Made by a program: the position numbers and the translations under genes
Source: Marsupella aquatica
Lineage: Eukaryota; Plantae; Marchantiophyta
Assembly: GCA_973895155.1 (NCBI GenBank)
Contig: OZ316892.1
Location: 9,404,283-9,468,282 of the forward strand
Direction: 5' to 3'
DNA: 64,000 bases
Notes under the pieces: generated by a model
Seen by the model: the letters and a program-made list of their open reading frames with translations, nothing else
Databases searched by the model: none
What the model was told of the DNA's origin: nothing
In this document: positions 2,094 to 27,845 of the stretch, in pieces
Layout: the number at the start of each line of letters is the position of its first letter
Numbering within the stretch: the stretch's first letter is position 1

Positions 2094-2821
2094 CACTAGT
2101 ACATTTTTGGTCTCTTTCCGATACTCAAATCGCGGCTTCTTTTAGCCGTCCGAAACCAAACGCATCGGACAACTTCCGATATTAAAACCATCGTAATTTC
2201 CGATTCATGATATATCGGAAATAAACGTACCGATGGAAAATGCTTCGCAAAAACTATCCCATACCAAAACTATCGAACAATGTCCGAAATTAATAGCATC
2301 GCAAAAAGACGACAAAAGTAAGGCTTTAGCTTCCGATGCAGTTACACTCGGACCTGAGGCTCGTTGGAAAAACAAACGGACATTGTCCGATATTTAAACC
2401 AACAAACATAATATTGGGAAAGACATTGCTTTGGAACCTACGTGCGATAGTTACAGTATCGGAAGTTGTCCAAAGGTAAGCATATCGGACCCCTCCTTCA
2501 TCATTTTTGCCAAGGGGTCCGATGGTTTCTGGAACGGAAAAATGTGTCCGATAGGTTTTGAATCGCATGTGTCCCGTCACTTTCAATATCGGAAAGAGGT
2601 TAGTTCTCCGGCCGAGTACCGATGCCTGTGCGATGTAGATTCCATGGGATTGACAATGGGACATTGTATTGTGGTCATGGTTTGATCCTGGATACTTGTA
2701 GCAATATAGTTTATGCAATGGTAGTGTGAGAACACATGAAATGCCGATAAATATGTAATACCAATAAAATAGCCACAAATAAGATGGTAGGGGTTAGCTA
2801 CGCCTTTGATGTACTAGATAT

Positions 2822-5800
2822 CTAACTAGTGGAGGGAATGTCAGTATCTTCCACTATAACTACGTTAGGTCTATCCTGGACGATGGATCGTGATCGTGGA
2901 ATGTATGGCATGACAATGGACCAATCTGAGTCATCTGGATAGGGTAGGTAAAAACATTGTTCAAGGTGATGGGGGAACGCAAAGGGATCTGAGGACCTCC
3001 AGTTTGAGCTGATGACACTATTTGCGGTTGTCTTCAACCGGGTAAAACCGCATGCATCATCTTCACATGTCCGGTTGTGGCCCACAAGATTCATCTTGAA
3101 CCATTTGCACTTTAATACCACTTCCTCCAAAGTAGTATGTGCATGGTACTTTATGGTAAGGATTTCCTCAATCTTTCCATAATGGGCGACGGTGGACCGA
3201 ATGGGATTCCTGTCTGATGTGCTACTCTGTGAATCTTGGGTGAACCAACCCATCACCCCACAATCTTGTGTAGCTGCCCTCTTCTCATCAAGTCGTTCAA
3301 CACGAAAATGTCTCCCCTTGGACCACATGGCTGTCCGAGTCGTGACTATAAGTAGTGGACCATGAATCAAGGTATGAAGCTTATCAGTCACCTTTGGGAA
3401 GTGTGATATGCTCTCCCCAATACCCACCAAGGCATCCACTTCTAGCATCTTTGACTTCATGTATGGGTGAAACTTGGGAAATAATCGTGGTCGCCGACTA
3501 TTTTTCTTCTCCTCCTCATAAAGTGTTGTCCACTCCCCTACAACCTCTGGTGAATTATACAACATAAATGTTGTGAGCTGCAAACGCTCCGCTGAGCTCA
3601 AGAGACGCTCTCCTGATGCCCCAGTGAGTCTATCATCCTCATAGTCCGCCTCTCACGCTGCCTCATGTGTCCATCCCCTAGGAGCGTTAGGATCTAGTGT
3701 GGCAACTATGTTTGTACAATAAAACATACTCTCTGCTCCAAGATGACGCTCTGCAATGCTACCTTCCACCCTAGCGCGATTAGAGACGTACGACTTCATC
3801 ACCCCCATATAACGCTCAACCAAATACATCCATCGACAATGCACTGGGCCTGCAATTGCAACCTCATGCACTAAATGTATGAGAAAATGAACCTGGCCAT
3901 CAAAGAAAGAGGGAGGGAGTGCCTTCTCCAACCTACAAATAACCTCTACTCCAAATATCTCCATTGCAGCAATTTCATCCTCCTGTACCTCCTTCTGACA
4001 TACCCATCTCAAAAGCTTTCCCAATGACCAAAGGGCATCACGAAGTTCCTCACTACCCAATCCAATAATCGCAACTGGAATGACATGTTCTAGTAACCGA
4101 TGATAATCATGTGTTTTCAAGTAAGATGGCCATTTTGGAGAATCATCCCCCCCAAATGCTTTTCGGAGATTTGCGCCATAACCTGTGGGAAACCTCATTG
4201 ACCCAATACGTCTGCGAAACTCAGTGCGCTCTGCCCTAGTCAAAACCCAAGGTGGATGGATGCTAGGGGGGTCTCCAGGGGGGTCCAAAGATGGCCAAAA
4301 ACCAAGAAGACCATGCATCCCCATCTCCTCACAACTTTCTCTCCAATTGTGGTTCTTCTCCCCATATAGATGACGAATCAATGACCTCCCCACATTCCCC
4401 TCAATGTGCATCGGATCTAACAAGTGATTAATGGGCATCTCTGACCAATATGGCAACTGTGATAATGCAGACAAACGGGTCATCCCACATCTGAGAAATT
4501 GTAATGGATCATCTGGGTCTTGAACTCTTTGCCATACCTCTCTCCAATATGCTGGATCCTTTCGCTGAGGTTGAGGACGGGTATCAGGTTGGCCCTCATC
4601 AGTGTCATACAGGAAGTGGTCACTCCTCCAAGGATGGTCTGCTGGAAGATATTTAGTATGACCAATGTAAACTATCTTCCGCAAAGTAGTTGACTTGTGT
4701 CTTGCCACTCCCTCCAAATCTGGTCCACATGAAGGGCAAGCTCGATAGCCTGATGTTTGCAATCCAGAGATATATCCAAACCCTATGATTGGTCAAGGGA
4801 CAGCCAGCCAATGAAAGAAGGTTAGAGAAAAGAATACAATTTTTAATTAAGTGCAAGATTGATGAAATAGGGTTAAATTAATTGCAAGGTTTACTGTGAT
4901 TACCTGGTAAATCATGCATGGTCCACATAAGAATGGCCTTGAGGGTGAATGCGCGAGATAAACCTCCAGTGTTGCGAAGTCTGTCATAACAATCCACTCC
5001 CCTCCAAAGTTGCAAAAGCTCATCAATCAAAGGTTGCAAGTAGATGTCAATCTTTTTTACTTGCTTAGGACCCGGGATGATCATTGAGAGTAGTAGATGA
5101 CCTTTCTTCATGGCCATCCATGGAGGGATATTGTAGTTTGTTAGAACTACTGGCCATACTGAATATGGTTTTGCTTTACCTGCCAATGCAAAAGGGCTAA
5201 TACCATCTGCTGCCAATCCAAGTCTCACAAGTCGTGGGTCAGTTTTGAACTCACCCCATCTATCCTCTACAAATTGATTGGCAGGAGAGTCAACCATCAT
5301 TCGCATGGCACTAGAGTCTGTACCCATATCAGAACGATGTTGTGAGTGCCATACCATATACTCAGCCAACTCTGCACAATGGTATTGATTTCGCAATCGA
5401 GGGATGAGAGGAAAATACCGCATAACTTTTTGAGGCACCTTCCCTGTCAACATGTCATCACGGTACCGCGGCTTCTCACACTCAGGACATATGATTGCAT
5501 TTTCATGCTCACCCCTAAATAGAATGCAGTCATTTACACATGCATGTATCACTTCATACTTTAGACCAATGGACTTCAACACCTGTTTAGCCTCCTTCCA
5601 AGACCTTGGCATGTTGTTGCCTGGTGGTAAAATGCGATCATGTAGGGTACGAAAAACATCATCCAAAAGTAGGTTGCTGGCCCCATGTCTTTGTTGCACA
5701 TTCAACAATAACATTATTGCTGAGAGCCGAGATAACCTACTCCCCTCAAATATGCGAGTACGAGCATGACGTTGAGCCTCTTCCCATTCCTTCTGCTGGC

Positions 5801-6050
5801 CCCCCCTAGAAGGATGAGTGGTGTTGTCGTCGGTGAAACCCATCTCCTCCATACCAATATCAGCATCATCTTCATAAAATTGGTTCATGAGCTCATCCAT
5901 GGCCTCCTCATCTTCAAGCCGATCTTGGGTAGAGTCATCATCCTCATGTTGTACCTCATTCTCCTCCCCATCATTCGCCACCATGGCCTCAACAAGGTGT
6001 TGCCGCATAGCTCGTGATATTACCCCAATATCAGGCACCACATATTGATT
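2822..6050 (-). CDS. CACTA TnpD-type transposase of element B (Transposase_21 + DUF4218 + DUF4216-like); intron about 4784-4903; one in-frame TGA at 3653-3655
   Basis: ORFs 4878-6041, 3653-4762, 2822-3601: HACVNDCILF, LGLAADGISPF, WTMHDLP, LDPMHIEGN, GPVHCRWMY, VVLKCKWF; AG acceptor at 6052-6051. Confidence 0.93.
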
Positions 6051-6170
6051 CTATCATACAACATCAATGCATGCAATCTCATCAACATCAATATTGTGAA
6101 CAACCAATTATCCAATGTTAAAAATGGAAAAGAATCCGATATATATATGTATATATGTAAGTCCAAGAAA

Positions 6171-7111
6171 CTATCTTGGACGGGAACGTAGGGACAATTT
6201 TGGTGCATCCCACTCATAATCACACAATAACTCCTCACCAGCTCTAATGGTCCTAACAGCGACCGTCATGATGTGATCATCCATATGTTTCACAAAATAT
6301 GGAGCTCTAGGTGGACCAAACATCTGGATCCACTCTACATTAGCCTCCAAATCTCTACCTCTACCCGTGGTACTATTGATGTACCCTGCTAAATTACAAT
6401 TCCGAACAGGGTCACCATCAATCATCCTACAATGCCACGGCCTAGTGAAGACCTCGTCTGGGTCTGAGTCCATCCTTAATGCGTACACCCCCCAACTTGG
6501 GTGTTGACGCAACAAAATGTTCCAACTCTTAGCGTTGTATACAGCTCCAATGTAAGGGAAAAGGTGCTCTCCATCATAGCCACGTCTCCATGGCTTTGGA
6601 GGGACAATAATGTCCTCCAAAGCATATAGACCATATCCTATATCAGCACCAATGGAGGAATCTTTCACTATCCAAGAGTGACCCCATATCTCAACCAGTT
6701 CATTAATAGGAATGTAGTCTGGAAATTTGAAGAGACTAGGATCAAAGTCTTTCAAAATGTCAGCTGCCCTACCAGTGAGATAAGATGCTCCAAACCGTCC
6801 ATCAACCCCAATATAATCTACGTTGTTGGATGGTCGGGCACTGCCTAACACCTCCTCCCTATTGTCTACCTGTTCCAGTGGCTCATATTGCCGTCTACGT
6901 CTACGAGACCGTGGTCGTGTACGTAGGACTCTTGTACACCCAACCTCCGGTCGAGAGACCGGTTCACCCTCTACATGCTCGACTATGGGGATAGGAGCAG
7001 GGGGCTAAGAGGTGGATGGGCAAGGGATGCAAGCAAGTCCCTTGCCCTTGCTAGAAACCCTTCTAGCCACACAGCATCATCAACCAAAGGAGGTGGGGGT
7101 CTACGAGGCAC
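6171..7111 (-). CDS. SET-domain (lysine methyltransferase-like) exon of CACTA B; 1-bp frameshift in the G-run near 7000
   Basis: GYGLYALEDI, LAGYINST, RTIRAGEELLCDY motifs in ORF 6171-6851; AG acceptor at 7113-7112 then a Pro-rich linker. Confidence 0.85.
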
Positions 7112-7228
7112 CTATTTCAACACACAATAAATTAAGTAGTGTTATTTGAATGCAAGCTAATTATATACAATATTTCACCAATTGCCGTTTCATGAAATGA
7201 AAGGGGGGATGTATGTATAATTATTTAC

Positions 7229-7459
7229 CTGGCTAGGCAAATAACCTGGCATATCACCCTCATGGCGACCATAGTTCTCAATGTGTTCACAAGTCTCCCA
7301 GGCATGTCGAACCACAAGTCCCTTGCATCTCACACACCAGCAAGGTATGGGCCCTAGTGGAGCACGAGGATGGTCAAGAGGAGGGGATGGAGGAACCTCC
7401 CCCTCGGACAAGCTCGTGTTAGAGTCTGAATCCGATGTGGAACTATCGGATGTAGACAT
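7229..7459 (-). CDS. 5' exon of the CACTA B transposase gene (transposase-associated Cys/His domain)
   Basis: CWCVRC...HAWETCEHIENYG resembles the CACTA transposase-associated domain; phase-0 donor CAG|GTAAAT at 7228. Confidence 0.7.
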
Positions 7460-8638
7460 CTACATACATATCCAACATGTAAGTTAGATTAAACAACTTC
7501 TTGTGTCGATGTATATACAAACATAATTAAGGAGATTTACATAGAGAGACATTGCCCTACGTACCTCAATGATACCCGCGCTTTGCTGTGCCTATTGGGC
7601 TATATTCTCGACACACAAAGTGTGGGATATCCAAAGTCTCTGCAAGGTGGGCATTTCAATAGTGAGCTAAGTGAAAAAAGTGCACGACATGCACACCTCG
7701 GCAAACGATGTGTCAAACTTGCCAAAGTAAACCTCTATGTTACAACCTGAGGAGAATACATGGATGGGCCAAGAAACATCATACCTCTTGGATGCGCGGT
7801 CTCACGCTATGCATAGTGCATTATCAAAAAAGACTACCAACCCCCCTCAAAAAAACTAATTAACCTACCCCTCCATGCCAAAATCAAGGTACTGCACATC
7901 ATATCCAAACACAAACATTAGCCTAACAATGGCTTCATGTTATCATAAGAAAATGTACAACACTATCCTCATAAAAACCCTAAACCAATGTCTCAAGCAA
8001 GACTATATAAGAATTGCATCATTATAGCCTAACATATTAGGTATGCACAACCAGAGTAAAATTATCCCCCAAAAAATGAAAATCAAGAACAAACCCAAAA
8101 ATTGTATCCGTGAAGAAGGAACTAGTATGCACAAGAGTCACATGCACGTCACGGTCACCCTCCCAGTGAGGTATGTATCACCCTACATCAAAAAACCTGT
8201 CAATTCAAATGGAAAGAAAATGTTAACACAACCATACCCAACCCAAATTCAAAAAACCCCAAAACTCTAGAATCCATACCCAATTCAACCCATTTAACTA
8301 AACACATCACACCCCCTTAATTTGGGAAGAAAAGGTGCATCCGAAAGAATTCTACGAGGGGTCCGATACTATAAGAAACGAACAAACCTTGGCAAACAAA
8401 AGGCAACCCATGCCATTAACAACGAGGGGTCCGATGTCAAACATATCGGAAGGTCCGATACCAATACCGATGTTCTAGGCTTCGGAAATTCCGAAGCAAT
8501 TTGCATCGGACGCAACAGGCCAGATTTCAAAAAAGAAGTCCCGACGCTGGTGCGAAGACCCGCGAGTCGGGACAAGCTTTGCACTTGACACTTAGGCTAT
8601 TGTCGAGGCTGGGAGGGGAGCTCAAAGGAGGAGGGGAG

Positions 8639-11163
8639 ATGGTGGGAGGCGAATCTGGTGGTGGGGATGGGGCTGGACCTTCTCGGGCATACGATGAGGT
8701 GATGAAGGAGATTTTTGTTGCTAGGGCCGGGTTGAGTGTGGAGGATGCAGCTAGAGTAGTCCTGCTTTTGCAGACCTTGTTTGATGCCTCAAAGATTGAG
8801 GCTCAGAAAGCTGCTGTAGCAGCCATTGCAGCTGCAAAGAAGAAGAAGAAGGAGGCAAAGAGAAGCAGGGCAGATGCAGAGGAGTCTCTCTCTCCTCGAA
8901 AACGAGAGAAGAAGCTTCGGAGGGAGGCTAGGGAAGCTGAGAAGGGGCGAGTAGAGGAGCTCAAGTGAAAGGAAGCAGAGAGAGCTTTGAGGCCTGAGCT
9001 ACCCCTAAACTCAGGTGGCTCTCCATTACCCAGGGGCTACAATCTCTTTCGCAGCCAATTCAAACAAGTGGTGCGGGCCAATTTGGGGCCATTAGATTAC
9101 TGGGGCAAGAAGGAGGAAGAGAAATCCAGAATTCGAGAGCAAGTGAAAGAACGATTCAAGAACGGGGCACACATTGATGATAGGTTCTTGAACAAGAGGA
9201 TATCCGCCTCACTCTCAGACATGCGAAACCATCAAAGAGAGAAATTCAGGAACTACCTTGCTGAGATGCCGATGGATGCAGAGGTGGTCAGGGAGCAGGG
9301 CTGTCCAGATGCGCTTTCCTCAGATGAGTGGGCAGCTTGGCTTGAGGAGGAACTAGCAGTCCGAGCCTGGCTGCAAAAATGTCACTACAATCTCGAAATC
9401 AGCCTGGCAGAGGAGAAGAGGAAAGCTGGAGAGGAAATTGACATCCTCCCCCTCCAACAGATGCTATGACAGTGGCATGCACAAGAGGTAAGACTCCCCA
9501 AGCCACCAAAGGACATCATAGCAGCTTTGCAGCGAGTGCAAGGTCGACCTGTGGTCACTCACCGGATGGGGCAAGGCGGCTCCAATCGACTGAAGGCTGA
9601 ATTTGTAAGTCCCCTCTCCCTCCTCCCTAGCTCCTCCCCCCGACCACCTGACCTTCTGTTGTGAAGAGTGACCATTTTTTAGCCTCCAAATGCTTTAAAC
9701 CCTTTGCGGCCCGATGGTGTAATTTGCTCTCGGCCCTGTGCTTTCCGATAGGTGTCCGATTCTTTCTGCATCGGACCCGGCATCGGACCTCTTGTTATTC
9801 ATTTTTTGGCACTAACGTTCCGAGGCAGTTCCGATGCTAAGACAATCGGATGGAGAATCGGACCCCTCGTAGAAAGCTTAATTATCAGGTTTTGTGGCAT
9901 TTTTAGGGGGCTTATAGCAATAACTGTTTAACTTTGGTATTAGGTTTTAGGTGTTTCATGATTGAGTAGCACTTTGTGGAGTTTTTTAAATTAGGGTTAA
10001 ATTTGAGAACTAGTTTGATTAGGGGTTTATATATAGGGTATAGGATATGTATGGGTATGTGGCAGGGGTCCTATTTTAAATTAGGGTTTACTATGATAAC
10101 AGTTTTAATGAGGGGTATGTAGGGTGTGCATTATGGGGTCCAAGATTGCTTGGTTTCATGCTAATGGGATATTTTGTTTGGGACTGTGAACTGCCAGGAA
10201 AGGGAGTGGGGTAGACCTATTGGGCCATCCGAGAGGGATTTGGCAAAGAGGAATGGACCCCGCGCTCTTAAGCGCCACCTTGAGGATGAGTTGGGAGAGG
10301 TTTGTGTTCCCCCTAGGTTATGAAAATGTTTTTGGTTATGGTGAATTTGTTAGAGTTTTGGAGGCCCTATATAAACTAATTTAACAACAATTTAATCCTA
10401 GCTATGTATTGCGTAGGAGGAGGAGTCAGGATTGGATGAGGAGTCAGGTGGGGCAGGTGATGAGGATGCAGGTGATGAGGACGGTGGTGATGAGGATGCT
10501 GGTGATGAGGATGCTGGCGATGAGGATGCTGGTGATGAGAATGCAGGTGATGAGGATGCAGAGGATGCGGCAGGGTCGGCGAGAGTTGCCACGATTACCC
10601 CTATCCCTCATGTTGCCCCCACATCAGCAGAGGGTGCTGGTTCACATGATACTGATGGTGTGGGCTCCCATCATTCAGCAGCATCACGGGGTGGTAGGCC
10701 CGGGCCGTCAGGGGGTAGTAGAGGTCGTGTGGGACCAGGCCATCGGTCCGGGGTACATAGTGCACCAGCTGGCCCTCCACGACGAGGGACTAGTGACATA
10801 CAGGATGGTGGTTCTAGGGGGCAAGCGCCATCTCGTGAGTCTGGTGGGAGTACAGCACGGCACGGGCCAGAGACAACACATGCAGGTGGAGCATCCCATC
10901 ACTCGCGTAGGTCTACCGGAGAGGGCTCCTTCCACTCTGCTGTGTCGGGGGGTGGTGGGACATCTGTCTTGCCTGAGCACCGTAGTGGTGCATCTAGTGG
11001 TTCAGGGTCTAGACCTGCATCAGGCCAACCCACGCCATCCGCTGAGCAGGTGGCTACCACGGTTGTGGGCAGCCACCAACATGAGGGGTCTCGCGCTCCC
11101 GAACCTGTACCCCGCCCACGCTCTCGCCCAAAGAAGAAGAAGGGACGCAGCACACCTTTTTAG
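8639..11163 (+). pseudogene. Second gene of CACTA B (TnpA/Transposase_24-like), multi-exon, two in-frame TGA stops, acidic repeat tail and C-terminal basic NLS-like segment
   Basis: In-frame ORFs 8501-8968 and 8987-9469 continue to YRMGQGGSNRLKAEF and a GTAAGT donor at 9605; last exon 10432-11163 has (AGDED)n and RPKKKKGR. Confidence 0.6.
10450..10570 (+). repeat. 15-bp coding tandem repeat (GGTGATGAGGATGCW)n encoding AGDED
   Basis: About 7 units read directly. Confidence 0.85.
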
Positions 11164-11944
11164 AGGTTTGTGGTACATAGTGTCTGATAGCTTTGATTAG
11201 AGGTACCACATAGTGTAGGCCAGTTAGAGCCTCATTTTGGTGTTTCATGTAGCCGTCACCGGCCATATGGCTCTACTGCCTACCTAGGCCCATTTCATTT
11301 TGTACATATTGGGGTGTTCCCCATTGTGAAAACCTGATATTTAATTCAACCACTACCTTGCTTTGAGCATGCTCTTTGGACCCTATTTTGTCAATCTCAG
11401 CCTGAACCCTAAACCTAAACCCCCAAATGATTCCCATGAATCCAATATTAAACCCCCACAAACCCTAAATATCCATTATTAGTCAAGCCGGTGACCCAGC
11501 TCATATCCGATACCATACGCTACGGAACTTCCGAAGTAAACTATTTCGGACCCCTCCTCCCAAATGTCCGATATTTTCAGCATCGCAATTTGCGTTACAC
11601 ACCACTACGGATGTCCCGATACATATTGCTACGCAAACTCCGATATGTTTTACATCGGACTATCCCATATAAAATACATCGGACCCTTGATATTACCTTT
11701 TGGTGGGCCTATAGTATCCGATGAAATTAGAATCGGACACAAATTATCCGAAACATTCAGTAACGGATGTACCGATTGTATCAGAAACAGAAATTCCAAT
11801 GGATGTCCGATTGTCGATATCCGATGGGTGAAGTATGGGAAAGTGCGAAGTAAATCACATCGGACGGGTCATTTTTCTGCGTCAAAATTTCTGAAGGGGT
11901 CCGATGTTGTTAGGATCGGAAAAAGGGCCGAAAATGTACTAGTG

Positions 11945-12322
11945 TCTATTCAAACAAGCACCCCCATAAATAGATGTTCTAGCATGTGCCTCAGCTTCTT
12001 CCCATTATTTTTGTCCTTCAGGTGTACGTTGAGGCCTTGGATCATGTGCAACATTTGGTGGAGTATCTCCTTCATTGGGTGGGACACCTCCTTCACTACC
12101 AATGTCTACACCAAACCAATCTGTCATGAAGTCATCCATGGTTGACTCTTGGTCTTGCATGACCTCATAATCTGTCCGAGGTGCCCCTTCATCTGGACTG
12201 TCATTATCATTGTCACTTGATGAGGAATCTGCTGATGATGTTTCCCCGTGTTGTGGCAAGCCCATTTCTTGATATGTAGCTCTCAACCTCCTTGGCAACA
12301 TATCTTGACTAGGCCGCACATT
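11945..12322 (-). pseudogene. Acidic 5' part of the element A transposase exon
   Basis: EGQK*WEEAEAHART matches element B GGQQKEWEEAQRHART; AG|AAT acceptor at 12324-12323. Confidence 0.85.
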
Positions 12323-12659
12323 CTATAGACACTAGTACATATTAAGCTGATTTCCGATGCTCAATTTTTGCGAACAATCGGCGTCCGATTCTTTTAGCAT
12401 CGGAAATTCCGATTATCAAAAAATGGCAATATGCCATACTCTCGGCTTCGGATATCTTCATTTCTGATATAATTGACAACGGAACCTTTCCGATGCGTTA
12501 AAAAATGGATCATATCCATTAGAAAGCACATCGGATCCCTCAACAGAAACTTTGATTGATATGTCCGATGTTTTTTGTAACGAAAATGATGTGCGTTACA
12601 ATATTGATCGGAAACTTTCCGTAGTTAATAATAACGGATATTATATCCGATTGTGCTAA

Positions 12660-12842
12660 CATGGCAAAGTCCGATGTTGGAAGAATGGGAAAGTCCGATG
12701 CTGGGAGTATGGGAAAGTCCGATGCTAGAAGAATGGGAAAGTCCGATGCTGGAAGAATGGAAAAGTCCGATGCGGGGAGTATGGGAAAGTCCGATACTAG
12801 AAGAATGGGAAAGTCCGATGCTGGGAGTATGGGAAAGTCTGG
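12660..12842 (+). repeat. 24-bp tandem repeat (ATGGGAAAGTCCGATGCTRGRAGW-like), left array
   Basis: About 7.5 units; source of the spurious MGKSDAGS ORFs. Confidence 0.9.
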
Positions 12843-13685
12843 TTATGACAAAAAGAAAATTTTTGATTGTGTTAGAATGAAAAGTTTTGATGTGTTAGAT
12901 GGGGTATGTGGTTGCACCGACATACTCTTCCCAAAAGATGCAATCATTCTTGCATGCATGAATAACTTCATACTTGAGGCAAATGGACTTGAGTGTTGTT
13001 TTTGCCTCATTCCAAGACCCAACATATTGTTCCCTTACGGAAATATGTGCTCAACATGCCAAGTCCAAAATACATCATCTAGAAGGAGGTTGCTTGTCCC
13101 ATGTAGTCTTTGTTGCAAGTCCAACAACAACATAGTTGATAAAAGATGAGACAATCAGGAGCCATTGACGTTGAGGCTTTGGAAGGACCAAAATATCATC
13201 CATAACTAATAAGCCATAATTATCCCATATCAAATCTAATGAAGGAGGGCTTTACTATCGATGAATGACCCCTGCCAGATTTCTATTGGTTTCTCCTAGG
13301 GGAATGTAATAGGGTAACTAGAATAGGTCACTTGATGCAAAGATCTAATCTCATGATAGAGAAAAATGGATCAAGAATGGGTCCAAATTATGGGTCTTAG
13401 TAAACTCACAAGTGTATAAAATCCCCAAACACTCTAAGTCAAACAACAAAAGTGCTAAGCTTGCATGTACAATGTAAGGAATAAGAACCACAAAGTTAAG
13501 CTCATGTTGGAGGAATAGCAATTGGGATGGGTGACCAATTAGTTGAGAAAATTTGAAGAGTTCACATGTCTTGGAGATGGGCACCTAGCTCATAGTTCCA
13601 AATGAAAGTAGAAACCCAATTAAAGGAAGAGATGGGTGACCTGAGCATGTCGCATCCGCTGAAATGCATATCCCATTTTGATTGC

Positions 13686-13866
13686 TTCGGACTTTCCCAT
13701 TCTCCTAGCATCGGACTTTCCCATTCTCTCACCATCGGACTTTCCCATTCTCCTAGCATCGGACTTTCCCATTCTCTCACCATCGGACTTTCCCATTCTC
13801 CTAGCATTGGACTTTCCCATTCTCCCACCATCGGACTTTCCCATTCTCCCACCATCGGACTTTCCG
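13686..13866 (-). repeat. 24-bp tandem repeat, right array, inverted relative to the left array
   Basis: About 7.5 units of CATCGGACTTTCCCATTCTCNNAN. Confidence 0.9.
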
Positions 13867-14045
13867 ATAGAAGTCCGATTGTCGATATCCGATACTATTA
13901 AAATGGCATGTTGCGATGCTAGTAGTATCGGATATATGGTTTTTCAAAATTTATTTTACAAAGGCATCCGATGTGGAGAGAATCGGAAAAAGGAGGTAAA
14001 ATGTACTAGTGAGACAATACAATAAAGCATTCACAATGAAATTAA

Positions 14046-14209
14046 TGTTGTAACCATTTACTCTAGACCATGGTTAACCCCTAACCCTATCCTGAAGGGG
14101 TAACATGGGTTAACACCAACCCCAACATGTAACCCTATGGTGACTATATAAGTCACACCCATAATGGAACACAACAGTGAGTTGCAAGTCTCTCCATTGT
14201 CACACAACA
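14046..14209 (+). repeat. Copia 5' LTR
   Basis: Direct repeat of 19665-19828. Confidence 0.97.
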
Positions 14210-14663
14210 CGTTATCAGCGCGATAGCATCTAAATTTTTTTTCAGTTTGGAGTTAAGGTAGGATAATTGGAGTACGGCTTTCAGACAAAGAAATTGACTT
14301 CCAATGTTGCGTTTTTAGCCCCACCACACATCAGTAACTGCCACCGATTCAAATCACACCATAATTTAAACTTCGGATCCTCTGAATAGTCCACGAATCC
14401 TTACGGAAAACACACAATCCGTATATAATTGATTAGTGACACTATCGGAGAGGCATGAATCACTTTGAAATAGTGTTTTCCCGTTCAAATTCGACTCAAT
14501 TTTTTTTATATCTTATTGTTCCGCCACGGAAATCCTGAGTTTCTTTTATCGCCAAGGAAAATCCCGTGGATAAAAAGGCACGAGTGATTGAAGTAATTGA
14601 GAACGACATAGATTTGATATTAATCAGAACGCGGACAGTGATTTGTTACAGATTTGAGATACT

Positions 14664-17504
14664 ATGGCCACCCTGGAGAAATTACACTTTCCAGCCCTAT
14701 TGGCAGATGGCAATAATTACTTAACCTGGTCAATAGATGTAGAGACCTACTTCGCATCAATACAACTAGAGGATACATTAATTACTGATGACAATTTAAC
14801 ATTGCAACAGAAGGCCAAAGCTGTATTTCTACTTAGACAGCATTTGACACCATCACTGAAGACACAATATATGAGTGATCTTAATCCCCGTCTATTATGG
14901 GACAAATTAAAAGCTCGATTTGACCATATGCGAGAGGTCTGGCTCCCAGAAGCCCGCAGGGATTGGTTTAATCTACGTGTCATGGATCATACTTCTATAG
15001 CAAATTATAATAGTTCTCTATTTCGTATTACATCTCAATTGGAGATGTGTGGCCACCCAGTTGCAGACTTAGACAAAATCGATAAAACGTTGAGTACTTT
15101 CCCAGAGGCCAACATCGCCTTGGGAACTCAATACAGGAATATGCAATTCACAACTTATTCTAACTTAATTGCACATCTCCTAGTAGAGGAGAAACAACAA
15201 ATTGTCTCTCTACAGAATGCAAGGAAACGACCACCAGGCACTGCACCAATACCACAGAAACCAGAAATTAATTACAATGCCCCAGAAGACCAACAACGAA
15301 ATATAAGAGGCCGGGGTACACAAAGAGGTGGATATAGAGGACGAGGTCGCAACTCAAATTATAGTGGAAGGGGAAATCAGTATGAAAATACCAGAGGTCG
15401 AGGCAGCAGAAGCCGTGGCCGGGGTAGAGGAAGAGGACGCGGCAGAGGTCACGCCCAATCATCTGACAACACACGAGAAGACCGAATGTATTATAGATGT
15501 GGAAAAATTGGCCACCTAAAGAAAGACTGCTGGGCTTCTGACCAAGCGGCTAAGAGGCACTCAGAAGCAAGAGCTAAGTTAAAGCAAAATCCAGATGGCA
15601 ACTATATGGAATTGGAAGAGGAGCTACCATCTTATCGAGAAGAAACTGATATGATAGACCAATCCAACGCTGAAGCTCATCTGGTGACAGCAGAGCCACC
15701 ATATCCCTCCTCCAACGATCCCAATTTAGGTATCATTGATAGTGGGACATCCCACACTATCCTAAAAGATAGGAGTTATTTCCAAGACATCACTCCATCT
15801 GCCAGGATAATGACAACCATATCAGGTACGAATAAGATTGAGGAAGGAACAGGAAAGGCTACTGTCAAATTTCCCCAAGGAACAGTCATTAACATCGAAG
15901 CAGCTATCTTTGCACCAAAAGCTACTCGAAATTTGATTAGCTTCAAAGACGTTGTTGCTAATAATTATCAACTCCGCACAGCAATGCTCCAGCAGAAACC
16001 TACTTTGCAAATAGTAGCCATGACCACAGATGGAATTCAAATCAAAGAGATACTACCTCTAATACCCCCGGGTTTATATGCAGCCCCAATAACAGCGAAC
16101 TATGCCACAGCAGAATCAAATAATCTTACATACCTCTGGCACTGTCGACTGGGGCACCCGGGAATAAATATGTATCGTCGCATCATCAATGACTCACGAG
16201 GAATCCCTAAAGGAGTGCGTCCATCTATAAATCATAAGCAATGTCTGGCATGTTCTCAGGGGAAGCTGAGTACACGCCCAGCTACACAAAAGACCATCTA
16301 TACTATCCCTAAATTCCTGGAACGTCTAAATGCTGATGTCTGCGGGCCAATACACCCTCCAAGTGGGCCTTTCAGATATTTTTTAGCCATTGTAGACTCT
16401 TCAACTAAATGGCTCCAAGTTTCATTAATTTCTACTCGTAACCTGGTCTTTGCCAGAATCTTAGCCAACTTATTAAAACTTCGAGTACAATTCCCAGATT
16501 GTCCAATTAAGAAATTGCGAGTGGACGGGGCAAGGGAATTTACCTCCAGAGCATTTGACGACTTCTGTATGACAGCGGGGATCGACATTGAATACTCAGT
16601 TCCTTACGTCCATTTCCAGAACGGCATAGCAGAGTCAGTCATAAAAAGGATTCAAATGATAACAAGGCCACTTCTATTGAACTCTAAACTACCACCTTCA
16701 GCATGGGGACACGCTGTCCTCCATGCAACAACTTTGCTTAAGTATCGGCCGTCAGCATTTAATACTAAAACCCCTCATCACCTTGCATTCGGTTTACCCC
16801 CTGATCTTTCACACATTAGAGTATTCGGATGTAAAGTGATGGTACCCATCCTTGGGCCACATCGATCCAAACTTGGCCCACAGAGAAGAGAAGGTATTTA
16901 TATTGGCCATGACTCCTCGTCTATTATCCGCTATCTGGAACCTAGCACAGCTGATGTATTTAAAGCAAGACACGCTGACTGCCATTTCTATGAGGAAATT
17001 TTCCCCTCATTACTTAAGGCGCCAACTACATCACACGACATAACACCAGTACAACTCAATTGGAATAGCAGAAATCTACTCAATCAAGATCCAAGAACTC
17101 AAAGTGCAGACGAGGAGGTAAGGCGCTTATTACATCTCCACGAAATGTTGGAAAAGATTCCTGACGCTTTCAATGATGCAGCAAATGTGACCAGATCACA
17201 TGTTGAAGCAGTCAATACCCCAGCTCGGATTCAGCTGCTGCCAACTCAAGCAAAGGAAACCTTACCTAAGGCGAAGAGAGGACGCCCACTAGGATCCACT
17301 GATTCTCGCCCTCGCCAGAGACGTGCACAAACGGTAAATACTGAAACCACATTTAATCTGGTCAGTATCGAACCAGAGAAAAAGAGGGCACCAGATAATG
17401 AAGAAATGTCTATTCAATACACACACAGGACACATTTATGCTCGATCAAACACAATAATAGACGAGCAGTTTGCTTATCATATAGCCCAATCCATCTCAA
17501 ATAA
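14664..17504 (+). CDS. Copia gag-protease-integrase
   Basis: 946 aa; knuckle YYRCGKIGHLKKDC (first Cys lost), protease IIDSGTS, WHCRLGHP, integrase D-D-E (RVDGAREF, QNGIAE). Confidence 0.95.
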   Translation: MATLEKLHFPALLADGNNYLTWSIDVETYFASIQLEDTLITDDNLTLQQKAKAVFLLRQHLTPSLKTQYMSDLNPRLLWDKLKARFDHMREVWLPEARRDWFNLRVMDHTSIANYNSSLFRITSQLEMCGHPVADLDKIDKTLSTFPEANIALGTQYRNMQFTTYSNLIAHLLVEEKQQIVSLQNARKRPPGTAPIPQKPEINYNAPEDQQRNIRGRGTQRGGYRGRGRNSNYSGRGNQYENTRGRGSRSRGRGRGRGRGRGHAQSSDNTREDRMYYRCGKIGHLKKDCWASDQAAKRHSEARAKLKQNPDGNYMELEEELPSYREETDMIDQSNAEAHLVTAEPPYPSSNDPNLGIIDSGTSHTILKDRSYFQDITPSARIMTTISGTNKIEEGTGKATVKFPQGTVINIEAAIFAPKATRNLISFKDVVANNYQLRTAMLQQKPTLQIVAMTTDGIQIKEILPLIPPGLYAAPITANYATAESNNLTYLWHCRLGHPGINMYRRIINDSRGIPKGVRPSINHKQCLACSQGKLSTRPATQKTIYTIPKFLERLNADVCGPIHPPSGPFRYFLAIVDSSTKWLQVSLISTRNLVFARILANLLKLRVQFPDCPIKKLRVDGAREFTSRAFDDFCMTAGIDIEYSVPYVHFQNGIAESVIKRIQMITRPLLLNSKLPPSAWGHAVLHATTLLKYRPSAFNTKTPHHLAFGLPPDLSHIRVFGCKVMVPILGPHRSKLGPQRREGIYIGHDSSSIIRYLEPSTADVFKARHADCHFYEEIFPSLLKAPTTSHDITPVQLNWNSRNLLNQDPRTQSADEEVRRLLHLHEMLEKIPDAFNDAANVTRSHVEAVNTPARIQLLPTQAKETLPKAKRGRPLGSTDSRPRQRRAQTVNTETTFNLVSIEPEKKRAPDNEEMSIQYTHRTHLCSIKHNNRRAVCLSYSPIHLK

Positions 17505-19302
17505 TACACCTGATCCCTATACAATCAAAGAAGCACAGAAAAGGCCCGATTGGCCACAGTGGAGAGAGGCTATCAATACAGAAATGGACGCATTAATCAA
17601 AAGACAAGTATTCGGCCCAGTTAAGGTTGTACAACCAAAGAATGACTATACAGATAGTCGTTTTATATTCGTTAGAAAACGCAATGCCCAAGGAGATGTC
17701 ATAAGATATCGAGCAAGGCTTGTAGCGAAAGGCTACACCCAAATCCCTAGAAGAGATTACGATTTAACCTATTCGCCAGTTATGGATGTAACTACCTTTA
17801 GGTACTTAATATCTTTTTCAAGAAAGCATAAACTCAAAAACATACTCATGGACGTGGTAACTGCGTACCTATATGGAGTCTTAGACTCCGAAATATATAT
17901 GAAAGCTCCAAAGGAATTGCTCGAAAGAGTGGTAGAGCACATCCAGGGGAAGAATATACATACCCTAAGTCAGGACATGAAGTCGGGACTTCGACAGATT
18001 GTCCCTGATGATGACATTAAAGGCCTAGTGTTGAGCAGTGGCAACACACTCAAAGAACCACTCCAGTACCCAGGTAAATATGGGACTGGACAGCAGGCAT
18101 TTGCTGTGCAAGTCCTTAAATCAATAAACGGACTGAAACAGAGCGGACGCATCTGGTATCAGACATTCAAAACTAAGATGCAGACTCTTGGCTTTATAAA
18201 TGACGACCTCGCCCCTTGCATTTTTATAAAACACCTAGCACCTGAGTTCGTGATATTAGCACTATATGTTGATGACGTCAATCTGTTCGGCACCCCCAAG
18301 CTATTAAAGCAGACTATTAATACAATGAAGGGCATCTTCGAAATGAAAGAACTGGGAGAACCGACGTATTGCCTCGGTCTACAGTTCGACCACCTGCCAC
18401 AAGGTATGTTTATTAGTCAATCAACTTACACAAAGAAAATTCTTCGACAGTTTAACATGCAGAATGCTTACTCAGTCTCGACTCCCATGGAGATGCGATC
18501 CCTGGACACCACTAAAGATATGTTTAGAAGGAGACAAGAAAATGAACCACTTCTTGATGCAGACAAGCCTTATTTATCTGCAATCGGAGCTCTCCTCTAT
18601 CTGGCGAACAACACCCGTCCCGACATTTCATTTGCAGTGAGTCTCTTGGCACGACATAGCGCCCAACCTACTATTCGCCACTGGAACGGCATCAAACGAC
18701 TATTTTGTTATCTTCAAGGCTCCATGGATATGGGCCTGTATTTCGCCAATGATAACCCGGATGAACTGCAAGGATACGCGGACGCTGGATATCTATCCGA
18801 TCCGCATGACTCGAAATCTCAGACTGGTTATGTCTTCTTGCAAGGCAACACAGCAATATCATGGCGCAGTACAAAACAAACCTTGACTACCACATCGTCC
18901 AATCATTCAGAAGTAATAGCTCTTTACGAAGCAACAAGAGAAGCGCTATGGCTTCGAAACATCATAAACCACATCCGCAAGAATACTGGTAAGCCACTAC
19001 TCACCAAACCGACGATTATCCATGAAGATAACAAAGCTTGCGTGGACCAAATCAATGCAGGATATATGAAGACAGACCGCACGAAGCATATCGACCCAAA
19101 ATTTTTCTTTACCCATGAACAGATAGGGCAGCACATCAATGTGCACTGGAAGAGCTCCCAGGAGAACTGTGCTGATCTATTCACGAAGCCATTACCCGCC
19201 AGCCTCCATCGAAAGCACGTAGCAGCGATCGGCATGACAAGATTGTCGACATTGCGCCCGCCCGTCGACACACAAACGAGAGAAACTCCACAGTTTGAAT
19301 GA
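17398..19302 (+). CDS. Copia reverse transcriptase-RNase H, frameshifted from the upstream ORF at an (AC)n tract near 17419-17427
   Basis: YRARLVAKG, LYVDD, GYADAGY, IHEDNKAC, ADLFTK. Confidence 0.95.
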   Translation: MKKCLFNTHTGHIYARSNTIIDEQFAYHIAQSISNNTPDPYTIKEAQKRPDWPQWREAINTEMDALIKRQVFGPVKVVQPKNDYTDSRFIFVRKRNAQGDVIRYRARLVAKGYTQIPRRDYDLTYSPVMDVTTFRYLISFSRKHKLKNILMDVVTAYLYGVLDSEIYMKAPKELLERVVEHIQGKNIHTLSQDMKSGLRQIVPDDDIKGLVLSSGNTLKEPLQYPGKYGTGQQAFAVQVLKSINGLKQSGRIWYQTFKTKMQTLGFINDDLAPCIFIKHLAPEFVILALYVDDVNLFGTPKLLKQTINTMKGIFEMKELGEPTYCLGLQFDHLPQGMFISQSTYTKKILRQFNMQNAYSVSTPMEMRSLDTTKDMFRRRQENEPLLDADKPYLSAIGALLYLANNTRPDISFAVSLLARHSAQPTIRHWNGIKRLFCYLQGSMDMGLYFANDNPDELQGYADAGYLSDPHDSKSQTGYVFLQGNTAISWRSTKQTLTTTSSNHSEVIALYEATREALWLRNIINHIRKNTGKPLLTKPTIIHEDNKACVDQINAGYMKTDRTKHIDPKFFFTHEQIGQHINVHWKSSQENCADLFTKPLPASLHRKHVAAIGMTRLSTLRPPVDTQTRETPQFE

Positions 19303-19664
19303 GCAGCTCGAGCCGACAGACGACAGCCGACTCGACGACGATGCAACCTAAAACTTTCATTCCTGTATACATAGACAGAATACGATTTCTCATACCAATA
19401 CAAGATAGAATAATTATTATCGTAAACACCCCATTTAAACTAAAGGGAAGTAGTTTTAGTAATAGGGGACCCAAATTAAACTTTACATTTGGACAAATTA
19501 TAAGGTAGACTCACCTTAGTGCAAATTTAAGAAAATCCTACTAATGGTGGCTAGAACCCTTTTTCCTTATGAAGAAAGCAGAAGGTTTTAATGGGGCAGC
19601 ACCAAAAATAAACATAGGGTTAGTAGTGTGGTGATTTTATACCCCTAAACTCTCCAAGGGGAAG

Positions 19665-19828
19665 TGTTGTAACCATTTACTCTAGACCATGGTTAACCCC
19701 TAACCCTATCCTGAAGGGGTAACATGGGTTAACACCAACCCCAACATGTAACCCTATGGTGACTATATAAGTCACACCCATAATGGAACACAACAGTGAG
19801 TTGCAAGTCTCTCCATTGTCACACAACA
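19665..19828 (+). repeat. Copia 3' LTR
   Basis: Direct repeat of 14046-14209, preceded by PPT. Confidence 0.97.
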
Positions 19829-19945: not shown

Positions 19946-20761
19946 CTAATCCCATTCATAATGTGTAAACAACTCCTCTCCAGCCAAAATGGTCCTATTA
20001 GCTACAACTAGACAATGGTCATGATGATATCTCTGCCCATAAGGGGCTGGAGGGGGACCATCAACAAAAACCCATTCACAGTTTTTCCTACACTTAGGCC
20101 GGGTCCCCACAGTACTGTTGATGAAACCGGCAATATTCCCACTACGGATGGGATCACCATCAATTATACGCTGGTCACAATACTTTCTGGTGCAACCATC
20201 AAAAGTATCCATGTCCAATGCATAGGTCTTCCACTCAGGGTGTTGAACAAGGATCATGTTCCAATGTCTCCTCTTGTAAATGGGTCCACCATACGGGAAC
20301 AACGTTGGTCCATCCGAAGAGCGCCCTTTTCCACCCATATCATCCACAATAATGTCCTGACAAGAGAAAATCCCATACCCATGCCTCTCCCCTAGGGTTG
20401 AACTCTTGACAACCCAATGTCTTCCCCAAATTTCTATCTCCTCACCATAGGTTATATCACATGGCAAACCAAGGCACTCCGGATTCCAATCCTTTATGAT
20501 AGGAACACACTTCCCTGTGAAGGTACAAGGGCCCCATCTACCATCAACCCTACAAGTGTACTGATCCACTTCCCCTCTAGGCTGTCTTTTTGACTTTTTT
20601 TTCCCTCTTGTAACAATACCGTCACCCTGAATTGTCCCAACACTACCTTGCCCTGCTGCCACTAAACGAAAAGCTTGTGAAAGTGCCGAGCCTATAGCAT
20701 CTAGAACTCCTTGTGAGGGAACATAGGGTGTTGGTGTAGTGGGTGTAGGCCTACTAGATAC
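19946..20761 (-). CDS. SET-domain exon of CACTA A (open frame)
   Basis: GYGIFSCQDI, IAGFINST, RTILAGEELFTHY; homologous to 6171-6851 (EIWG.W.VK.S, LFPY.G, IDGDP.R); phase-0 acceptor TTCCTATAG|GTA at 20762. Confidence 0.87.
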   Translation of the reverse strand, partial: VSSRPTPTTPTPYVPSQGVLDAIGSALSQAFRLVAAGQGSVGTIQGDGIVTRGKKKSKRQPRGEVDQYTCRVDGRWGPCTFTGKCVPIIKDWNPECLGLPCDITYGEEIEIWGRHWVVKSSTLGERHGYGIFSCQDIIVDDMGGKGRSSDGPTLFPYGGPIYKRRHWNMILVQHPEWKTYALDMDTFDGCTRKYCDQRIIDGDPIRSGNIAGFINSTVGTRPKCRKNCEWVFVDGPPPAPYGQRYHHDHCLVVANRTILAGEELFTHYEWD

Positions 20762-21184
20762 CTATAGGAAGAAATGGAACCAAGTGAGTGTGATGAACCT
20801 CCCAAATTTTATTTTATGCTACCTACACTAGAAGAAAACAGGGCCCTTTATGACCAATCACCCAATGACGGAGATGAATAAATGACCAAAATTTCTAATG
20901 ACACAAAAAGAATGACAGGGGAATGACTGTCCACAATGACCAATAGACCAAAATGACAAAATGTTAACTTTTGCGTCATTTTGTATAATGTTTGTAATGA
21001 CTGATGTGACCAAAATGACCCAATTTCCTTAAATGGTCAATTTAGATACATGTCCTAAATGACACAATTAATAACAACAATGATAAATCAGTGTTTAGCA
21101 ACATTATAGTCACTCTGGACAACGGTGATAAATGACAAAAAATGTATTACCGTCATTTTAACCAACGGTGTTAAATGACGGTAA

Positions 21185-21780
21185 TATAGGGTCAATCTGA
21201 AAATGAGAATATATCAGTGTTTACAACAATATATTGTCATTATGGATTTCACCCATAAATGACTAACTCTAGGGTCAATCTTGAAATTAGGACATATCAA
21301 TGTTTACAAGAACATACCGTCATTATGGACTTCTCTCATAAATGACTAACTCTAGGGTCAACCTTAAAATTAGGACATATCAATGTTTACAAGAACATAC
21401 CGTCATTATGGACTTCTCTCATAAATGACTAACTCCAGAGTCAATCTTGAAATTATGATATATCAGTGTTTACAAGAACACACCGTCATTATGGACTTCT
21501 CTCATAAATGACTAACTCCAGAGTCAATCTTGAAATTATGATATATCAGTGTTTACAAGAACATACCGTCATTATGGACTTATCTCATAAATGACTAACT
21601 CTAGAGTCAATCTTGAAATTATGATATATCGGTGTTTACAACAACATATTGTCATTATGGACTTGTCGCATAAATGTCTAAATATAGGGTCAATCTAAAA
21701 ATCATGATATATCAATGTTTACAATAACATACAGTCATTATGGACTTATTGCATAAATGACTACTTATAGAGTCATTAAA
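21185..21780. repeat. 83-bp tandem array (about 7 copies), each with inverted GTCATT...AATGAC
   Basis: Unit marker AGRGTCAAYCTT recurs every 83 bp (about 21270, 21353, 21436, 21519, 21602, 21685). Confidence 0.9.
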
Positions 21781-21859
21781 GAACCCAAGAGATATGAAGA
21801 TTAAAATACTCAATAGTCATTCCAGACACCGGTCATAATTGTAGAGTCATTGATATAGT

Positions 21860-24800: not shown

Positions 24801-25320
24801 GAGCCATGTTTTCACAATTACTTAAGGGATGATGCAACCTTGGGGAAATCACTCCCAAGTCATACAACATTGGAGTGATTTTCCAAAAGCACCATCATGG
24901 ATGAATATGTTATGTTCCAAAGGCAAATGGAGCCATTTGTTTGTTCCTCCAAGAGGTAGTGCAACACCAATGGAATGGGCGTGGTAGTGGTGCTTCCCTC
25001 TATGGTGTGTGTGCTGGTTAAAGGTATAGGAATATTCTATTTTTGCAATGAACCTAGAGTGGGCTCTCTCGGGAGGTACTAGGACCTTCATTGGGTCATT
25101 TTTGCACAAAGTTGTGTCATAAGTTCCAATGACCACAAATAGGGTCATTACATATGTCATATGGACTGTCACATAAGTCAAATGACTGGATTTGTGGTCA
25201 TTTGAGGTGTCCCTAGTGCAGTCATTGAAGACAAGCATAAATGACCAATTTGGGGCTAAGGGCTGAAGGTGGGCCCTAGAGTGCCATGTGGCCCACATAG
25301 AGCTCGCAACCCCTCCACTA
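21860..25320. repeat. About 570-580-bp tandem array (about 6 diverged copies)
   Basis: GGGGAAATCACTCCCAAGTCATAC-like marker at about 21978, 22559, 23137, 23703, 24277, 24842. Confidence 0.9.
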
Positions 25321-27279: not shown

Positions 27280-27356
27280 TAGCCCTCCACTTAAATTTCG
27301 TCGTGTCCCCACAAGACATGACCGAATTGAATCAGAAGCGAGTGACATGTTCTTCA

Positions 27357-27833: not shown

Positions 27834-27845
27834 AAATGGTGTCCT

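What the first reader, a model, noticed from the sequence alone, without database searches (positions are those of the whole stretch)
6050..7459. Predicted alternative splicing: one Cys/His leader exon joined either to SET or to the transposase core
Seen: exon 7459-7229 ends in a phase-0 donor. Both the SET exon (acceptor before 7111, own stop at 6171) and the transposase exon (AG|AAT at 6050) start in phase 0. Element A shows the same: phase-0 acceptor at 20761 for SET and AG|AAT at 12322 for the transposase. Established: En/Spm makes TnpA and TnpD by alternative splicing. Inference: skipping the SET exon gives transposase, and inclusion gives a SET protein sharing the transposase N-terminal domain, which could target it to the element. 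Element B needs one extra base in the G-run near 7000 to restore the frame.
Basis: partly seen in the sequence, partly recalled or inferred. Interest (0 to 1): 0.72.

Follow-up and report, generated by a model that had tools for sequence, protein, structure and literature searches.

The report
Transposon's shared exon: SET or transposase
A cut-and-paste jumping gene, likely of a liverwort, carries a conserved exon with the predicted fold of a histone-marking (SET) enzyme between the first coding exon and the body of its transposase gene, and it likely splices that one first exon to either part, which would let the element make its own protein-methylating enzyme; no RNA was available to test the splicing.

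Summary
A 77-codon Cys/His exon ends in a phase-0 donor (7229). Phase-0 acceptors open the SET exon (7111) and the transposase exon (6050). The break near 7000 is real: other copies carry the extra G, and a relative at 80% identity reads through. Element A keeps both acceptors, but its leader is not in the window, so it cannot show the shared exon. An independent metagenome contig (L001) shows leader, SET exon, stop and AG|AAT in the same order, with introns of different length and sequence. Both downstream exons need an upstream coding exon: SET has no Met before its first motif in A and B, and the transposase exon opens with a conserved stretch before its first Met. No phase-0 donor follows the SET domain, so the likely mechanism is one donor choosing between two acceptors, not cassette inclusion. 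No RNA run was listed; methyltransferase activity and targeting are untested. Copy B is broken. SET genes are known in other transposons; I found no paper on this nested layout. This scan noted the family before on other DNA, in this genome and in peat mosses.

The parts
2094..11944 (-). Element B: CACTA DNA transposon, 9,851 bp, TIR CACTAGTACATTTT (14 nt perfect, about 30 imperfect), 3-bp target duplication TCT, TCCGA/TCGGA-rich subterminal regions; inserted in element A's transposase gene
   Evidence: ends, TSD; 25-28 motifs per kb at the ends vs 3 per kb in the window; contigs of 4 of 4 runs join 2089>11944
7565..7601 (-). 3' end of an upstream exon (donor GAG|GTACGT, 105-nt intron 7564-7460, acceptor TAG|ATG); 24 of 37 nt identical in register with L001 459-495
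   Evidence: joints 7465-7469>7561-7562; found by eye, so the P of about 1e-5 is uncorrected
7229..7459 (-). Leader exon, 77 codons: Ser/Pro-rich tail, then CxCxxC...HIExYGRH; phase-0 donor CAG|GTAAAT
   Evidence: dN 0.78, dS 2.18 vs L001; hairpin plus helix model, pLDDT 79
7112..7228 (-). Intron 1, 117 nt, 28% GC, ends TAG
6171..7111 (-). SET exon, phase-0 acceptor, own stop; frameshift in the G5 run at 7000-7004 in this copy
   Evidence: (PF00856, 25.2 bits, cut-off 22.4)
6051..6170 (-). 120-nt T-rich spacer after the SET stop, no donor-like GT, ends in the transposase acceptor TAG
4904..6050 (-). Transposase exon opening at AG|AAT in phase 0: conserved N-terminal stretch, acidic tract, Transposase_21; donor AG|GTAATC
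   Evidence: (E 3.8e-39)
2822..4782 (-). Last transposase exon (rest of Transposase_21, DUF4218, DUF4216) with an in-frame TGA at 3655-3653 in this copy
8639..11163 (+). Second gene (ORF2) of element B, on the opposite strand and diverging from the leader; no Pfam family; in-frame stops at 8966-8968 and 9467-9469
   Evidence: other copies read C at 8966
19946..20761 (-). Element A SET exon, phase-0 acceptor TAG|GTA, 271 codons, intact frame, own stop
   Evidence: (29.9 bits)
11945..12322 (-). Element A transposase exon start, TAG|AAT phase 0; continues at 2090 after element B; contains stops and frameshifts
14046..19828 (+). Copia LTR retrotransposon (164-nt identical LTRs, TSD TTAAT) inside A's SET-to-transposase spacer
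12330..14011 (.). Non-autonomous CACTA (24-bp subterminal repeats, TSD TCT) inserted 4 nt upstream of A's transposase acceptor; second copy at 56694-58373
20826..20855 (+). CACTA-type terminus 64 nt upstream of A's SET acceptor; A's leader is not found beyond it in the window

Best explanation
This CACTA family carries a conserved SET-fold exon inside the first coding intron of its transposase gene, and the one phase-0 donor of the Cys/His leader likely chooses between two acceptors to give a leader-SET protein or a leader-transposase. Use of the near acceptor (7111) would give a protein of about 390 aa that ends at the SET stop. That RNA would end in or run through the 120-nt spacer, since no donor follows SET. 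Use of the far acceptor (6050) would remove a 1,178-nt intron that contains SET and give the full transposase (leader, Transposase_21, DUF4218, DUF4216). Shown: the sites, their phases, their conservation, purifying selection on SET and leader, the SET fold, and the stop after SET. Inferred: that both junctions are used. Further inferred, at lower odds (about 0.5): that the SET protein is an active lysine methyltransferase that helps the element, on chromatin or on its own proteins. That the leader aims it at the element is a guess (about 0.2). Copy B itself is likely dead (SET frameshift, transposase stop, ORF2 stops).
For: (a) Same order and phases in L001: leader 650-883 ending ATG|GTATGT, 111-nt intron, TAG|GCT, 262-codon SET, stop, 219-nt spacer, TAG|AATATG at the contig end. 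(b) SET needs an upstream coding exon: its first in-frame Met lies after motif I in B (178 vs 123) and A (142 vs 128), though before it in L001 (6 vs 123). (c) Leader-SET proteins in other species: the Calypogeia fissa model CAM6082608.1 joins at the same place (SAQQ|VP vs LPSQ|VP). Riccia sorocarpa models P0054, P0074, P0084 and P0092 carry a leader-like motif before the SET-family region. An unnamed Logan protein, P0058, holds leader and SET in one 423-aa sequence. (d) The transposase exon needs an upstream coding exon: its first 20 or so codons align between B, A and Riccia models. In 4 of 4 Riccia models that enter it at GFDPP the first Met is 62-70 residues in. (e) In angiosperm CACTAs a transposase-associated domain precedes Transposase_21 in ORF1 (PMC8978399, passages); one leader hits that family, PF13963, at E 0.002. 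(f) 71 of 75 SET-family proteins with both motifs end within 25 residues of ELxxxY, and no phase-0 donor follows it in 3 of 3 elements. (g) dN is well below dS for SET (A vs L001 0.27 vs 1.04; B vs L001 0.56 vs 1.72) and leader (0.78 vs 2.18).
Against: No spliced RNA was seen here. The C. fissa and Riccia joins are gene models. Riccia's were merged from ab initio, protein and long-read cDNA evidence (PMC11735767, passages), and I cannot tell which supports these models. I found no protein that joins leader directly to transposase: one search found no candidate at all, and none is among the proteins held. L001 ends 6 nt into the putative transposase exon, so its frame there is unverified. A's leader is missing. 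An in-frame Met lies at codon 15 (B), 8 (A) and 2 (L001) of the transposase exon, so a leaderless start is possible. 6 of 7 leaders show no PF13963 match. Seven Riccia models join SET sequence to the transposase N-terminus. The SET motif reads (Y/F)INS where canonical SET domains have NH (recalled), so activity is not assured.
Confidence: 0.72

Rival explanations
1. The leader belongs to SET only. The transposase starts at a Met inside its own exon, by re-initiation on a two-cistron RNA or by splicing of the upstream non-coding exon (donor 7564) straight to 6050.
For: In-frame Met at codon 15, 8 and 2 of the transposase exon in B, A and L001. An upstream donor exists and is conserved with L001. 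No leader-transposase protein was found. Two ORFs in tandem on one RNA are described for Spm TnpD (PMC1636069, passages).
Against: The position of that Met is not conserved. It lies 62-70 residues in for 4 of 4 Riccia models, behind a conserved stretch. The acceptor keeps phase 0 in B and A. One leader matches PF13963 weakly. An unchecked note reports leader-to-transposase reads in peat moss (e1-7364157).
Confidence: 0.09
2. The leader splices only to the transposase. SET is an intron-nested gene expressed from another start, or rarely or not at all through the leader.
For: L001's SET exon has a Met at codon 6. Many database SET proteins lack a leader, though most are ORF calls without splicing. 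Unchecked note e1-7364157 saw no leader-to-SET reads.
Against: No Met before motif I in A or B. Intron 1 is only 111-117 nt, little room for a promoter. The SET acceptor keeps phase 0 in B, A and L001. P0058 holds leader and SET in one sequence.
Confidence: 0.11
3. A donor near the end of SET splices into the transposase exon, giving one leader-SET-transposase fusion like SETMAR.
For: Seven Riccia gene models join SET sequence to the transposase N-terminus; P0085 keeps the whole SET domain.
Against: Those seven models leave SET at six different points, six of them before the final Tyr, while four enter at the same GFDPP. That pattern fits a fixed acceptor and improvised donors. No phase-0 GT follows ELxxxY in B, A or L001. 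71 of 75 family proteins stop right after SET.
Confidence: 0.06
4. The SET block is a captured, non-functional gene fragment and the matching phases are chance.
For: CACTA elements often capture gene fragments (PMC8978399, passages). Copy B is broken.
Against: dN is far below dS. The family spans two distant liverwort genera and 93 representatives at E<=0.001 (a few of these, such as P0107, are unrelated). Intact frames exist in A, L001 and P0001.
Confidence: 0.02

Closest known systems
Maize En/Spm and Arabidopsis EN/SPM3, EN/SPM7 (PMC1636069 and PMC13547354, passages)
   Same: CACTA superfamily; a transposase and a shorter second protein made from one transcription unit by alternative splicing.
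   Different: There the second product is TnpA, a DNA-binding accessory factor. Here it would be a SET-fold protein nested in the first coding intron and sharing a coding exon, while ORF2 lies on the opposite strand. Splicing is shown there and only inferred here.
Plavaka accessory gene PAG2 of red algae (EnSpm/CACTA superfamily; bioRxiv 10.1101/2025.02.11.637652, passages)
   Same: An EnSpm-superfamily element that carries a SET domain (PF00856), proposed to act on chromatin, function untested.
   Different: PAG2 is described as one of three accessory genes beside the transposase locus and joins SET to an N6-adenine methylase domain. No methylase domain is in this SET protein, and it sits inside the transposase gene.
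HarbingerS and Phytophthora MuDR families with SET genes (named in PMC12730594, passages; the Repbase Reports cited there were not seen); SET capture by Helitrons (mentioned)
   Same: A DNA transposon carrying a SET histone-methyltransferase-like gene.
   Different: Other superfamilies and hosts; described as accessory genes. Whether they share an exon with the transposase was not stated in the passages I saw.
SETMAR (PMC9062482, search listing and start of abstract only)
   Same: SET domain next to a transposase.
   Different: SETMAR is a single-copy host fusion of a host SET gene with an Hsmar1 transposase. Here the SET exon is in a multicopy mobile element and ends in a conserved stop before the transposase.
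VANDAL (MuDR) anti-silencing protein VANC (named)
   Same: Precedent for a plant transposon protein that alters the epigenetic state of its own copies.
   Different: Different superfamily and protein; that protein induces hypomethylation. Self-targeting is shown there and untested here.

Membership tests
CACTA (En/Spm) superfamily | Terminal inverted repeats starting CACTA | tested here: met
   CACTAGTACATTTT at 2094 and 11944
CACTA (En/Spm) superfamily | 3-bp target site duplication | tested here: met
   TCT on both sides; empty site joined in contigs of 4 of 4 runs
CACTA (En/Spm) superfamily | Subterminal repeats | tested here: met
   TCCGA/TCGGA 25-28 per kb at both ends vs 3 per kb in the window
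CACTA (En/Spm) superfamily | Transposase_21, DUF4218, DUF4216 in order | tested here: met
   E 3.8e-39, 2.3e-30, 2.4e-06; DUF4216 is under its cut-off, 28.5 vs 30.6 bits
CACTA (En/Spm) superfamily | Transposase-associated domain (PF13963) before Transposase_21 | tested here: inconclusive
   B's leader has no match; 1 of 7 aligned leaders matches at E 0.002; position fits PMC8978399
SET-domain lysine methyltransferases | SET domain by profile and fold | tested here: met
   PF00856 above cut-off in B and A; model pLDDT 79; Foldseek SETD8 E 2.3e-07; Z 11.7, rmsd 2.4, 123 aligned to COMPASS Set1, tied with EZH2, SETD8, SET7/9
SET-domain lysine methyltransferases | Cofactor and catalytic motifs GxG, NH, ELxxxY (motif definitions recalled) | tested here: inconclusive
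   G123, G125, N210, G256, E258, Y263 invariant in 20 of 20 aligned; the residue after N210 is Ser in 20 of 20, not His
SET-domain lysine methyltransferases | Methyl transfer to a lysine; substrate class | not testable with these tools
   No subfamily stands out in the fold searches
En/Spm-type expression (TnpA and TnpD from one unit) | Alternatively spliced transcripts observed | not testable with these tools
   No RNA holder listed
En/Spm-type expression (TnpA and TnpD from one unit) | ORF2 on the same strand in the same transcription unit | tested here: not met
   ORF2 at 8639-11163 is on the + strand, diverging from the leader
Plavaka PAG2 | N6-adenine methylase domain joined to SET | tested here: not met
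   Only PF00856 in the SET exons and in the leader-SET model P0001
SETMAR-like SET-transposase fusion | Whole SET domain in frame with the transposase | tested here: inconclusive
   No phase-0 donor after ELxxxY in 3 of 3 elements; 1 of 75 database proteins, a gene model, shows it; RNA not available

The most novel reading that the evidence does not exclude
An old bryophyte CACTA lineage runs a splice switch: one zinc-binding leader exon makes either the transposase or an active SET lysine methyltransferase. The shared leader brings the enzyme to the element's DNA or to the transpososome, so the transposon writes its own chromatin mark in a lineage where the host silences many transposons with H3K27me3.
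Probability: 0.2. Interest if true: 0.85.

Novelty: new variant of a known kind. Interest (0 to 1): 0.58.

Why it matters
Transposon-borne SET genes are listed for red algae, oomycetes and Helitrons, and none was shown to work in the passages I read. This family gives a land-plant case, kept under purifying selection in distant liverworts. Its coding economy is unusual: two different enzymes would share one N-terminal domain through acceptor choice. If both junctions are used, the ratio of transposase to SET protein is set at one donor and can be measured. In Marchantia a large share of transposons carry H3K27me3 (bioRxiv 10.1101/2022.10.24.513474, passages), so an element-encoded lysine methyltransferase would make a histone-level counter-silencing strategy directly testable. 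It would also give a handle on the function of the CACTA transposase-associated domain.

Tried and rejected
No whole genome was held, so copy number and splice-site statistics across the genome were not possible. No RNA holder listed among 5 runs; all runs laid were contigs of unstated kind, and none of the joints listed was 7229>7111 or 7229>6050 (one search lists 14; one search lists 15 and omits 38). This says nothing about expression. A search for longer SET relatives found none among 1845 candidates, though later returned fused Riccia models, so that blank was weak. A search with the leader for longer proteins found no candidate. Viral contigs gave no relative for SET (47 stretches) or transposase (4 stretches). 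Prokaryote genomes gave one 38-residue chance-level match. Of 6 metagenome loci only L001 holds a leader. L002 shows SET, stop, a 128-nt spacer and TAG|ATC opening an acidic frame, but that frame is not shown to be a transposase. L003 is degenerate. L004-L006 are distant SET relatives without the layout. ESM Atlas look-ups of two leaders gave no PF13963 cluster; C2H2-like neighbours scored 0.88-0.89, a lead only. The leader model matched no solved fold, which does not exclude one. A sequence search of the PDB with the SET profile gave nothing under E 0.035. An unanchored local alignment of the regions upstream of the B and L001 leaders was not significant (108 of 300 shuffles reached it); the 24-of-37 block was picked by eye at the donor. 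Variant rows (33 exonic rows of the 40 shown; 294 rows not shown) gave 15 synonymous of 33; I do not lean on this. PMC4158355 gave no passage for my terms. The SET-transposase fusion and the captured-fragment readings were considered and ranked low.

Full report
Setting. The window is a nest of plant transposons. No genome is held. The best relatives of the SET protein are gene models of the liverworts Calypogeia fissa (69% identical) and Riccia sorocarpa, so the source is likely a liverwort. Element B spans 2094-11944, with CACTAGTAC ends and a TCT duplication. It sits inside element A's transposase; contigs of 4 of 4 runs join the empty site.

Observation. In B the 231-nt exon 7459-7229 starts at ATG and ends CAG|GTAAAT in phase 0. 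TAG|GTG at 7111 and TAG|AAT at 6050 are both phase 0. The SET frame breaks in the G5 run at 7000-7004. Other copies carry an extra G there in 3 of 4 runs (about half of the summed depth), and P0002 at 80% identity reads through. Whether the short allele is a mutation of this copy or an assembly slip cannot be told from contigs. B also has a stop in the transposase (3655-3653) and stops in ORF2, so it is likely dead either way. Element A has both acceptors in phase 0, but no leader in the window, and two later insertions lie in its spacer.

Conservation. A metagenome contig, L001 (1 of 6 loci), is an A-type element (SET 65% identical to A, 46% to B). It shows the whole layout: a 78-codon Cys/His leader with a phase-0 donor, a 111-nt intron, a phase-0 acceptor, a 262-codon SET exon with a stop, a 219-nt spacer, and TAG|AATATG where the contig ends. 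Intron lengths differ between B, A and L001. In B's sister copies the intron interiors are replaced while the splice-site ends stay. dN is well below dS for SET and leader.

Why one leader likely serves both exons. SET cannot start alone in A or B, because the first Met lies inside the domain; L001 does have an early Met. The C. fissa model joins leader to SET at the same junction. Four Riccia models and one unnamed Logan protein hold a Cys/His leader before the SET-family region. The transposase exon begins with about 20 codons that align between B, A and Riccia, and in 4 of 4 Riccia models entering at GFDPP the first Met is 62-70 residues in, so it too needs an upstream coding exon. The leader is the conserved phase-0 coding donor upstream. 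Angiosperm CACTA transposases have a transposase-associated domain in this position (PMC8978399, passages). One of 7 leaders matches it at E 0.002, and B's own does not. Against this: no leader-transposase protein turned up, early Met codons exist in B, A and L001, and no RNA run was listed.

Kind of splicing. No phase-0 GT follows the ELxxxY motif in B, A or L001, and B's spacer has no donor-like site. 71 of 75 family proteins end within 25 residues of that motif. So SET is likely a last coding exon reached by the near acceptor, and the transposase is reached by the far acceptor across a 1,178-nt intron. Seven Riccia models join SET to the transposase, but at six different SET positions and mostly cutting off the final Tyr. 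I read these as gene-finder joins, though P0085 keeps a whole SET domain and leaves the fusion open at low odds. ORF2 lies on the other strand, unlike TnpA in En/Spm (PMC1636069, passages); split-gene layouts are known in Arabidopsis EN/SPM families, there head-to-tail (PMC13547354, passages).

The SET protein. Pfam SET passes its cut-off in A and B. The model (pLDDT 79) matches SET domains by Foldseek (SETD8, E 2.3e-07) and VIA-align (Z 11.7, rmsd 2.4, 123 residues), with Set1, EZH2, SETD8, SET7/9, NSD2 and PRDM domains within about 1 Z unit, so no substrate can be named. GxG, Asn, GxE and the last Tyr are invariant in 20 of 20 aligned proteins; Ser follows the Asn where His is usual (canonical motif recalled). 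The leader models as a hairpin plus helix with two Cys at the turn and a His in the helix, which fits a zinc site, but it matched no solved fold. That it targets SET to the element is untested.

What is known. SET genes are reported in red-algal Plavaka (PAG2, fused to an adenine methylase), HarbingerS and Phytophthora MuDR families, and Helitrons. My searches found no paper on a SET exon nested in a land-plant CACTA transposase gene or sharing its first exon. Repbase Reports and most subscription papers are outside the library, and the preprint's supplements were closed. This scan noted the same family before, in other pieces of this genome and in peat mosses. One note (e1-7364157) reports RNA reads for leader-to-transposase and none for leader-to-SET in a moss; I could not check it and treat it as a lead that cuts both ways.

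Verdict. Real, conserved architecture; shared-leader acceptor choice likely (0.72); function of the SET product inferred. New variant of a known kind; interest 0.58.

Noticed in passing
window 46428-46746 (+) and 46968-49447 (+): A third CACTA transposase (element C) has, just upstream, a PHD-finger block (PHD-1st_NSD E 2.5e-05, under cut-off) followed by GAG|GTAAGA and an acceptor TAG|ATG at 46968; donor and acceptor are both phase 1, but a TGA sits just before the donor. It may be a second case of a chromatin domain placed ahead of a CACTA transposase.
   Followed up: partly
window 52496-53110 (-): An ORF with an N6/N4 DNA methylase match (PF01555, E 1.3e-06, above cut-off) lies in a multi-ORF stretch with TAGCGCC(C/A)GGCGCTAG-type palindromic repeats (50280-63042, family D18), between the two parts of element C's transposase-like sequence (DUF4216-like block at 63269-63961). 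Plavaka PAG2 carries the same methylase family.
   Followed up: partly
window 7565-7601 (-) and L001 459-495: A 37-nt block just before a conserved donor upstream of the leader is 24/37 identical; the first seven codons read SPIGTAK in both with only third-position changes. Spliced to the leader acceptor it would overlap the leader ATG out of frame: a possible conserved upstream ORF. B has a stop in it.
   Followed up: partly
window 20826-39870: A CACTA-type end at 20826 is followed by an 83-bp tandem array (about 21100-21880) and a 565-584-bp array (about 21850-25400, resuming near 39500) split by a gypsy element with 1,395-nt LTRs at 25886-27280 and 38051-39445, 99.9% identical. No matching second end was found.
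   Followed up: partly
window 12330-14011 and 56694-58373: Two 98%-identical copies of a 1.68-kb non-autonomous CACTA with 24-bp subterminal repeats and an internal transposase remnant; its ends resemble element B's.
   Followed up: partly
L002 340-1288: A distant SET relative (34% identical) is followed by a 128-nt spacer and TAG|ATC opening an acidic frame like the transposase N-terminus, suggesting the layout reaches more distant families.
   Followed up: partly
P0104 and P0135 (Calypogeia fissa models): Two 503-506-aa proteins join this SET family to a different Cys/His-rich N-terminus; possibly a domesticated or source gene.
   Followed up: no
window 41343-41485 and 44184-44326: 143-nt identical direct repeats 2.8 kb apart, like the LTRs of a small non-autonomous retroelement.
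   Followed up: no
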